From NCBI GenBank assembly GCA_964016885.1, contig OZ024745.1:45570001-45634000 (forward strand): a stretch of 64,000 nt of DNA, read 5' to 3'. Below, in pieces: positions 61,780-62,887 of the stretch. The position numbers were made by a program, and so were the translations under genes. Positions within the stretch are counted from its first letter, which is position 1. Every line of letters begins with the position of its first letter. The notes beneath the pieces were generated by a model. It did not search any database. It saw nothing but the letters and a program-made list of their open reading frames with translations, and had not been told where the DNA came from. The DNA is from Eledone cirrhosa. Taxonomy: Eukaryota.

Positions 61780-62738
61780 AAGGTCTGCAAACAGAATATA
61801 TTTTCAAACTGCAATAGAAATACATTCAAGTTAACATAAAGTCGTTCCATCCATCAACTCAGCTAATTACCAAAGTTAAACTAAAAAAAATGTCCCTTAT
61901 TTTCAATAAACACTTTTTCTTTTGGGGGCACCTATTAAACCTAAAATAGATAAATATATCTTCTATCTAATTGCATTAAAATATCGATCAAATCAAAATA
62001 TTTAATAAATGAAATACCGAAACGAAAATACAAAACTGATTCGATACTACAAAAACGGAAATCCAGCCATCGAAATAGAAACAAATCTTATTTAAAATTT
62101 TTCACAAAATCAGATGACCGTATCAATTAAATTATAGCAAAAAATGTGAAATTCCACTGTATTAATTTACAACATTTTGGAAAATTTAAGAAGCTTGCAG
62201 ATGTTTCATATTTTGGATCGGAATCGTAAATAGCTTTTCTGTCAAATATGCTCTATAGAATATATGACTGTTTGAGTTAAATGTACTTTATTTATACTTT
62301 TTTTATTTTTTTTTTTATTAATGATAGTCATAGATTACATAGTCGAAAAAAATTTATATTTTTGCCTCTTTCAAATTCCAGCATTGAGCTGGGGAGCACT
62401 ATTATGATGAGGGTCAGAGCCAGAAATGCAATGGCAGTTGACCCCGCTACTTCTGCTGGAATCCGCTACACGGCGCTAGCCGTCAGCTTTTCAATGTTCA
62501 TATCTAGTAGGCTTTACACATGTTTATTCGTATAACATGAGATATACAAAATTCACACTCACACAGCCACACACACGGATACACACACACACACATACCC
62601 ACACACACACACAGACACACACACACACACACACACACACACACACACACACACACACACACACACACACCCACACACACACACACACACACACACACAC
62701 ACACATATATATATATATATATATATATATATATATAC

Positions 62739-62787
62739 GATTCCTGATGATTTCTAAAGAATGAAACAGTTCTAGTCCTGTAGAATC
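62739..62787 (+). ncRNA. Complete compact hammerhead between two (TA)n tracts
   Basis: GATTC-CTGATGA-tTTC taaa GAAt-GAAA-CAG ttctagtc CTG-TA^GAATC. Confidence 0.85.
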
Positions 62788-62887
62788 TCATCTATATATA
62801 TATATATATATATATATATATATATATATATATATATATATATATATATATATATATATATATATACACATATATATATATATAATA

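What the first reader, a model, noticed from the sequence alone, without database searches (positions are those of the whole stretch)
62738..62792. A naked 55-nt hammerhead inserted between two TA arrays
Seen: the entire non-repetitive spacer is one HHR (5-bp helix I GATTC/GAATC, canonical CTGATGA and GAAA, 4-bp helix III, GUA site) plus about 6 nt. Inference: the ribozyme alone can be the unit of mobility, or RT starts and stops at ribozyme boundaries.
Basis: seen in the sequence. Interest (0 to 1): 0.75.

Follow-up and report, generated by a model that had tools for sequence, protein, structure and literature searches.

The report
Penelope retroelement stub spanning its hammerhead
This 55-base hammerhead-shaped piece is a tiny leftover of a very abundant Penelope-like jumping gene sitting in a TA repeat, and its edges likely mark where the element's RNA begins and where its copying enzyme starts, rather than a ribozyme that moves on its own.

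Summary
The hammerhead motif is real (62739-62787), but helix II is weak (3 bp plus U·U) and the fold is not the predicted minimum.

It is not a free ribozyme. It is bases +2 to +56/60 of the pseudo-LTR of a young, likely Hydra-clade, Penelope-like element: 30,451 exact hits to a 24-mer, and 18 of 18 selected copies with a 713-aa ORF.

The boundaries are not random. 3' ends fall at about +60, +67 or +136, as in full-length copies, never at the cleavage site (0 of 151). 5' ends pile up at +1/+2, 30 nt below a TATA box. An extra G precedes 79 of 100 starts at +1 against 12 of 100 at +8, which is likely a copied cap. Twelve copies carry an exact splice junction inside helix I.

Likely mechanism: RT primes internally at a nicked (TA)n and runs off the capped 5' end of uncleaved sense RNA. 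Usually two such arms join head to head (52 of 53 pairs are long + short); this one is a rare solo short arm. The scan noted such stubs before on other DNA. Side find: a ~370-kb satellite of 78-bp hammerhead-only units.

The parts
62554..62737 (.). left target microsatellite: (CA)76 then (AT)16.5
62738..62738 (+). junction base C; the parent has A (+1) here, so it is likely untemplated
   Evidence: C precedes 8 of 100 listed +2 starts
62739..62797 (+). pLTR fragment +2 to +56/60 of the Penelope-like element (short arm); the last 5 nt (TATAT) are shared with the target
   Evidence: 1 mismatch in 59 nt (in loop II) to the pLTRs of intact copies L257, L259, L261, L270
62739..62743 (+). helix I 5' strand; also spans the element's intron acceptor position (+2/+3)
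   Evidence: spliced copies
62744..62750 (+). catalytic core CUGAUGA
62751..62762 (+). helix II: U·U, 3 bp, variable tetraloop
62763..62782 (+). GAAA core, 4-bp helix III with a palindromic CUAG loop, GUA triplet; predicted cleavage after 62782
   Evidence: two copies co-fold at -12.8 kcal/mol against -1.4 for the hairpin
62783..62787 (+). helix I 3' strand
62793..62884 (.). right target microsatellite (TA)46

Best explanation
The 55-mer is a minimal insertion of a Penelope-like element (likely Hydra clade), likely made when the element's reverse transcriptase primed at a nicked (TA)n on the TATAT at +56-60 of an uncleaved, capped sense transcript and ran off that transcript's 5' end, which is predicted to lie at the first base of hammerhead helix I. 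Shown: parent element, copy numbers, discrete ends, TA targets, extra G before +1, spliced copies, long + short head-to-head pairing. Inferred: (1) +1 is the Pol II start (TATA at -30, Inr-like CCAGATT, CCAAT at about -86). (2) The G is the copied cap. (3) Both DNA ends of the cut target are primed, one at +136 and one at +60/+67. (4) The weak ribozyme had not cleaved when it was copied. (5) This copy is solo because only the short cDNA was captured, or because its partner was later lost. The ribozyme is a passenger that nearly fills the interval between the transcription start and the proximal priming site.
For: Parent: L091 and L253-L270 show pLTR, hammerhead, tail and ORF; 18 of 18 copies chosen for a long open frame give 713 aa. 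3' ends of 151 arms: 27 at +54-62, 41 at +64-73, 80 at +113-141, 3 running into the ORF; 15 full-length 3' pLTRs end in the same three classes (2, 9, 4). 5' ends: 47 of 151 at -1 to +3 (30 of 68 short arms). Genome-wide, 2,128 matches start at +1 and 2,401 at +2, against 994 at +8 and 6,303 that read on upstream, about 2,400 of which are the satellite. G before the start: 79 of 100 at +1 against 12 of 100 at +8 (same native base C; Fisher p = 1e-22). About 20 of 42 inspected G arms cannot be explained by a partner arm or the flank, including two pairs with G on both arms. An untemplated G is a reported cap signature for L1/SVA (PMC3287187, passages). 12 exact GT-AG exon junctions, one locus with both arms spliced. 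52 of 53 inverted pairs are long + short. Internal RT initiation, cutting and extension of both strands, and indifference to hammerhead cleavage are shown in vitro for another PLE (PMC11167929).
Against: No transcription start was measured. This copy has C, not G, at its junction and starts at +2. Starts at +2 are preceded by T 52, G 40, C 8 of 100, so the cap signal there is weaker. About half of the inspected G cases are ambiguous by microhomology. 41 of 148 arms end at +4 to +15, so the edge tapers. None of 17 intact copies with a printed 5' context starts at +1: 15 keep the promoter and 2 start at about -2 to -6. The peak also overlaps the splice acceptor and the self-complementary helix I strand. 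The D. virilis Penelope promoter is internal and TATA-less (PMC2377424, passages), so TATA use is not general. The arm sample comes from the first 56 Mb of C1 and is enriched for long arms. No empty allele was seen.
Confidence: 0.72

Rival explanations
1. Same parent, but the 5' pile-up comes from structure or repair, not a transcription start: the cDNA folds back or switches template when the helix I strand (AGATTC/GAATCT) is copied, or at the splice acceptor, and the G arises by microhomology.
For: The peak lies exactly on helix I and on the acceptor. 2 of 42 G arms are helix-I microhomology joints and about 20 more are ambiguous. PMC3846280 (passages) favours self-priming for head-to-head PLE inversions.
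Against: Solo arms joined straight to TA also start at +1/+2, some with G. Short arms often reach further 5' than their long partner (for example L167, L113, L170), which fold-back of the long cDNA cannot give. An RNA structure would block RT at its 3' edge, not its 5' edge (inference). No conserved leader precedes the G, which argues against trans-splicing.
Confidence: 0.15
2. The copy began as an ordinary head-to-head long + short insertion and lost the long arm later, by hairpin excision or slippage in the TA arrays. This is compatible with the start-site model and differs only in how the copy became solo.
For: Its ends match the commonest short arm (+2 to +60); 53 of 90 tail-anchored arms have an inverted partner.
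Against: There is no trace of a partner in the flanks. Solo long arms starting at +1/+2 within TA are commoner still (15 of 26), so direct solo insertion occurs.
Confidence: 0.1
3. The hammerhead is itself a minimal mobile unit (a mini-retrozyme cut out by self-cleavage, or a circle copied in trans).
For: About 10 of 26 TA-flanked +2 starts are short, hammerhead-only copies. A 78-bp hammerhead-only tandem array of about 4,700 units exists, with a 7.5-unit copy on C1.
Against: No 3' end at the cleavage site (0 of 151) and only 4 of 90 5' ends at +44-47. The copy has no promoter and no second ribozyme. The tandem junction was seen only on C28 and C1 among listed matches, all on the forward strand. 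The C28 array begins with a normal inverted long arm, so it likely grew in place. The C1 copy is not in TA and ends mid-unit.
Confidence: 0.03

Closest known systems
Hydra-clade Penelope-like elements (Craig et al. 2021, PMC8557442; abstract, passages and section 11 read)
   Same: Single ORF with C-terminal GIY-YIG-like EN, RW[KR], DKT, CxCX5C linker, CxxC and CxH motifs, hammerhead in the pLTR, (TA)n targets, 5' truncation and adjacent inverted copies.
   Different: The genomic unit is 5-6 kb because of a ~2.8-kb microsatellite-rich intron (spliced unit about 2.4 kb). The optional tail is 70-80 nt rather than 30-40. No tree was built. The paper's supplementary consensus files were not read and may hold this family.
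PAc (Poseidon of Anolis) internal initiation (Frangieh et al. 2024, PMC11167929; parts 1-2 of 4 read)
   Same: Discrete internal RT start sites downstream of the hammerhead, AT-rich targets, both strands cut and extended, uncleaved RNA used as template.
   Different: Here the starts lie in the 5' UTR, before the ATG at +182. One of them uses TATAT homology to the target. The 5' stop with an extra G was not described in the parts read.
[quoted passage not shown]
   Same: Type I hammerhead in the pLTR, mostly found as dispersed single motifs. Palindromic loop III suited to dimers. Intron end in helix I, as in D. virilis. U·U at the base of helix II, as in Amex2 (22% monomer cleavage per hour, better as a dimer).
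   Different: Helix II is short (3 bp) rather than 7-8 bp, helix III has 4 bp, and there is no G10.1-C11.1 pair.
Non-LTR retrozymes (PMC7229834, passages; Li et al. 2026, 10.64898/2026.07.22.740005, parts 1-2 of 5)
   Same: The C28 array is a PLE-derived tandem repeat with a type I hammerhead per unit; 78 bp lies within the reported 51-972 bp.
   Different: The window copy is a monomer fragment. The array (about 4,700 units) far exceeds the reported maximum of 300 units and is essentially single-locus.

Membership tests
Type I hammerhead ribozyme | CUGANGA, GAAA and NUH core joined by three formable helices | tested here: met
Type I hammerhead ribozyme | G10.1-C11.1 pair and a stable helix II | tested here: not met
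   U·U plus 3 bp, pair probability about 0.01; an active natural variant with U·U is reported
Type I hammerhead ribozyme | Compensatory changes in stems, variable loops | tested here: met
   helix I A-U/C-G, loop II hypervariable; 14 related, hand-picked rows
Type I hammerhead ribozyme | Rfam model match | tested here: not met
   0 hits at gathering score; the E-value mode was not run
Type I hammerhead ribozyme | Self-cleavage and loop I-loop II tertiary contact | not testable with these tools
   needs a bench assay; the distal helix I region is clipped in this copy
EN+ Penelope-like element (parent) | pLTR-ORF-pLTR layout, hammerhead in the pLTR, optional tail, inverted 5' copies | tested here: met
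EN+ Penelope-like element (parent) | RT plus C-terminal GIY-YIG endonuclease | tested here: inconclusive
   YRDD and IVYKC/YIGMT motifs seen by eye (that these mark RT and GIY-YIG is recalled); Pfam GIY-YIG E = 0.0049, below its cut-off, and no RT family hit at E <= 0.1
EN+ Penelope-like element (parent) | Retained spliceosomal intron | tested here: met
   GT donor in 18 of 18 intact copies; 12 exactly spliced genomic copies
Hydra clade | RWK-type motif, DKT, CxCX5C linker, CxxC and CxH around the EN, (TA)n target | tested here: met
   motifs read in the L253 protein against section 11 of PMC8557442; the first motif is RWR
Hydra clade | Placement in an RT phylogeny | not tested
   no reference proteins were fetched
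Non-LTR retrozyme (window copy) | Two or more tandem units, each with a hammerhead | tested here: not met
   single partial copy; the C28 array meets this feature
Non-LTR retrozyme (C28 array) | Dispersed multimers | tested here: inconclusive
   two loci seen among listed matches, forward strand only; contigs listed after C28 were not shown
Non-LTR retrozyme (C28 array) | Expressed as linear and circular monomers | not testable with these tools
   needs RNA data

The most novel reading that the evidence does not exclude
Thousands of PLE insertions here are run-off copies of the capped 5' end of the element's own sense mRNA, made from both ends of the cut target at two fixed internal priming sites. 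Head-to-head pLTR inversions would then need no antisense template or self-priming, most priming would be futile, and productive copies would need read-through RNA. The start site sits on the first base of helix I and the splice acceptor two bases later, so initiation and splicing would decide which hammerhead form can fold. One such short arm has grown into a ~370-kb satellite of almost pure ribozyme that could yield 78-nt circles.
Probability: 0.45. Interest if true: 0.6.

Novelty: new member of a known kind. Interest (0 to 1): 0.38.

Why it matters
The 55-mer itself is common retroelement debris. Its family, however, records steps of Penelope-type retrotransposition that the literature leaves open: whether the template is sense or antisense (PMC3846280 argued for antisense self-priming and left it undecided), how inverted pLTRs form, and whether the ribozyme is needed. 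Cap-like G residues on both arms, spliced arms and fixed priming sites point to capped, uncleaved sense RNA primed from both target ends. This can be tested directly with CAGE and the existing in vitro PLE assay. It also warns that 'naked ribozyme' insertions in TA repeats need not be independent mobile RNAs.

Tried and rejected
Rfam at gathering score: nothing.

The first genome search with the 65-mer was biased towards copies sharing the junction C, so L001-L030 were left out of the boundary counts.

Upstream 5' calls at -2, -17/-18 and -141 to -147 are mostly alignment breaks at subfamily indels, not true ends. They were only lumped as 'upstream'.

RNA evidence: no RNA holder listed. Two contig runs of unknown kind were laid on L253. 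Depth rises over +1 to +136 more steeply in X4 than in X1, but contigs cannot show starts or levels, so this was not used. Their go-back joints led to the satellite.

Empty allele: not examined. No relative genome is held and the flanks are long microsatellites.

Trans-spliced leader as the source of the G: rejected, as there is no conserved sequence before it in 42 arms.

Search of earlier scan notes by sequence: nothing.

Paper searches listed nothing whose title or abstract start described a cap G at PLE junctions or a hammerhead-only satellite of this size. The library lacks most subscription papers and no supplements were read.

No structure prediction, homologue search or tree was run.

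Full report
Observation. The window lies at G000:C5:45570001-45634000 of a 3.0-Gb genome. Helix II is 3 bp with a U·U where G-C is usual. The active fold is 3.4 kcal/mol above the MFE and helices II and III are rarely populated; z = 0.21; Rfam gives nothing. Loop III is palindromic and two copies pair at -12.8 kcal/mol, as in dimer-acting metazoan hammerheads (PMC4209133, PMC7229834). Sister subfamilies keep the core, vary loop II and swap A-U for C-G in helix I. The motif was therefore likely selected in the parent; activity of this clipped monomer is likely low.

Parent. A 24-mer has 30,451 exact matches, including sister subfamilies and a satellite; a downstream 24-mer has 8,990. Many copies continue upstream through TATA (-30) and CCAAT (about -86) boxes and downstream to +136; +1 is the A that the window's C62738 replaces. 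L091 continues into a broken ORF. A search with its N-terminus gave 150 scored matches of 11,251 candidates. I fetched 18 with a long open frame, and all 18 encode 713 aa. In 15 a second pLTR follows about 4.5-5.8 kb after the ATG. The protein has RWR, DKT, YRDD, CxCX5C, CxxC and CxH motifs, matching the Hydra clade description (PMC8557442 section 11). Pfam support is weak (GIY-YIG E = 0.0049, below cut-off; no RT hit) and no tree was built. The window copy differs from the pLTRs of four intact copies at 1 of 59 bases.

3' boundary. In 151 arms from C1 (hammerhead- and tail-anchored loci; L001-L030 excluded as biased), 3' ends fall at +54-62 (27), +64-73 (41) or +113-141 (80), and 3 run into the ORF. 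None lies at the cleavage site. Full-length copies end in the same classes (2, 9 and 4 of 15). The window's end, CATC followed by TATAT shared with the target, is the first class. This fits the discrete internal RT starts shown for PAc (PMC11167929).

5' boundary. 47 of 151 arms start at -1 to +3, tapering to +37. Genome-wide, 2,128 matches start at +1, 2,401 at +2 and 994 at +8; 6,303 read further upstream. Point mutations in longer copies add a little to the first three counts. The base before +1 is G in 79 of the first 100 listed, against 12 of 100 before +8 (hand counts; Fisher p = 1e-22). Of 42 G arms inspected, about 20 cannot be explained by partner or flank, 2 are helix-I microhomology joints and the rest are ambiguous; L222 and L229 have G on both arms with one base between. 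An untemplated G is a reported mark of a copied cap (PMC3287187). TATA at -30 with a YYANWYY initiator is the usual Pol II geometry (recalled). Against this: the window's own junction base is C, +2 starts show G in only 40 of 100, and none of 17 intact copies starts at +1.

Template. A predicted GT donor after the ORF (18 of 18 copies) and an acceptor at +2/+3 define a ~2.8-kb intron. Twelve genomic matches carry the exact exon junction, and in L337 both arms are spliced. These copies were made from sense, spliced RNA whose hammerhead had not cleaved. An intron ending in helix I is also reported for D. virilis Penelope.

Architecture. 52 of 53 head-to-head pairs are one long arm plus one short arm (the sample guarantees many long arms, but partners were short). 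Short arms often reach +1 to +3 while the long arm stops at +30 to +70, which fits two priming events better than fold-back. TA directly precedes +2 at 237 matches (some counted twice). Of 26 distinct loci read, 3 are naked like the window, 7 end at about +67, 1 at about +82 and 15 are long. The window copy is therefore a rare solo short arm, with probably tens of such copies in the genome.

Satellite. Go-back joints in public contigs led to a 78-bp tandem array of pLTR -12 to +62/66 on C28. It runs from about 30,496,726 to between 30,861,000 and 30,880,000; 17 of 17 probes inside hold 9-13 units per kb, so about 4,700 units if uninterrupted. 174 of 231 sampled units keep the core. Its left edge is an ordinary inverted long arm in TA, so it likely grew from a short arm in place. 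A 7.5-unit copy sits on C1 outside TA. All junction matches are on the forward strand. It is the nearest thing to a 'ribozyme-only unit', but it is not shown to be mobile. Retrozyme units of 51-972 bp and up to 300 repeats are reported.

Verdict. This is a new member of a known kind: a PLE pLTR stub. Earlier unchecked scan notes on this genome describe similar stubs, and one invokes a transcription start in another family. My reading was recorded before I saw them. Those notes call the genome octopus-like, which I did not check. Papers were read only in the parts named under Closest known systems and in the evidence fields. Supplements were not read and may already list this family.

Noticed in passing
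G000:C28:30496726 to about 30861000-30880000 (L272-L302): ~370-kb satellite of 78-bp units, each little more than this hammerhead (about 4,700 units), starting from a normal inverted PLE arm in TA; it explains the forward-strand excess.
   Followed up: partly
G000:C1:350200250-350200850 (L271): 7.5 units of the same satellite outside any TA array, ending mid-unit next to a short duplicated sequence; looks like capture at a DNA break.
   Followed up: partly
L335-L340 and six further places: Twelve intron-less copies of the element's 3' region; the ~2.8-kb intron is mostly TG/TA microsatellite and is normally retained.
   Followed up: partly
window 63966-63995: A second, unrelated hammerhead core (CTGAGGA, A·C plus 4-bp helix II, GAAA) with only about 2 bp of helix I, ending about 100 nt later in a TA array (L092); likely another PLE end.
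   Followed up: no
window 62961-63178 and 63213-63238: 82-nt inverted repeat (94%) with a 54-nt spacer, running into (AT)21, plus a third 26-nt partial copy; the layout resembles another head-to-head insertion.
   Followed up: no
window 11606-13204 (+) and 54252-55421 (+): RVT_1 reverse transcriptase frame (E = 1.7e-32) and a mariner-type transposase frame.
   Followed up: no
window 13541-16939: 3.4-kb (AT)n array; the window holds 82 tandem-repeat rows.
   Followed up: no
L031, L036-L038, L044, L053: A degenerate sister hammerhead embedded in a larger repeated block on C1, copied with identical flanks.
   Followed up: no
inverted junctions, e.g. L009, L078, L114, L163: Short junction fillers often repeat TCAG/CCTGA from +6 to +10, like templated insertions of end-joining repair.
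   Followed up: no
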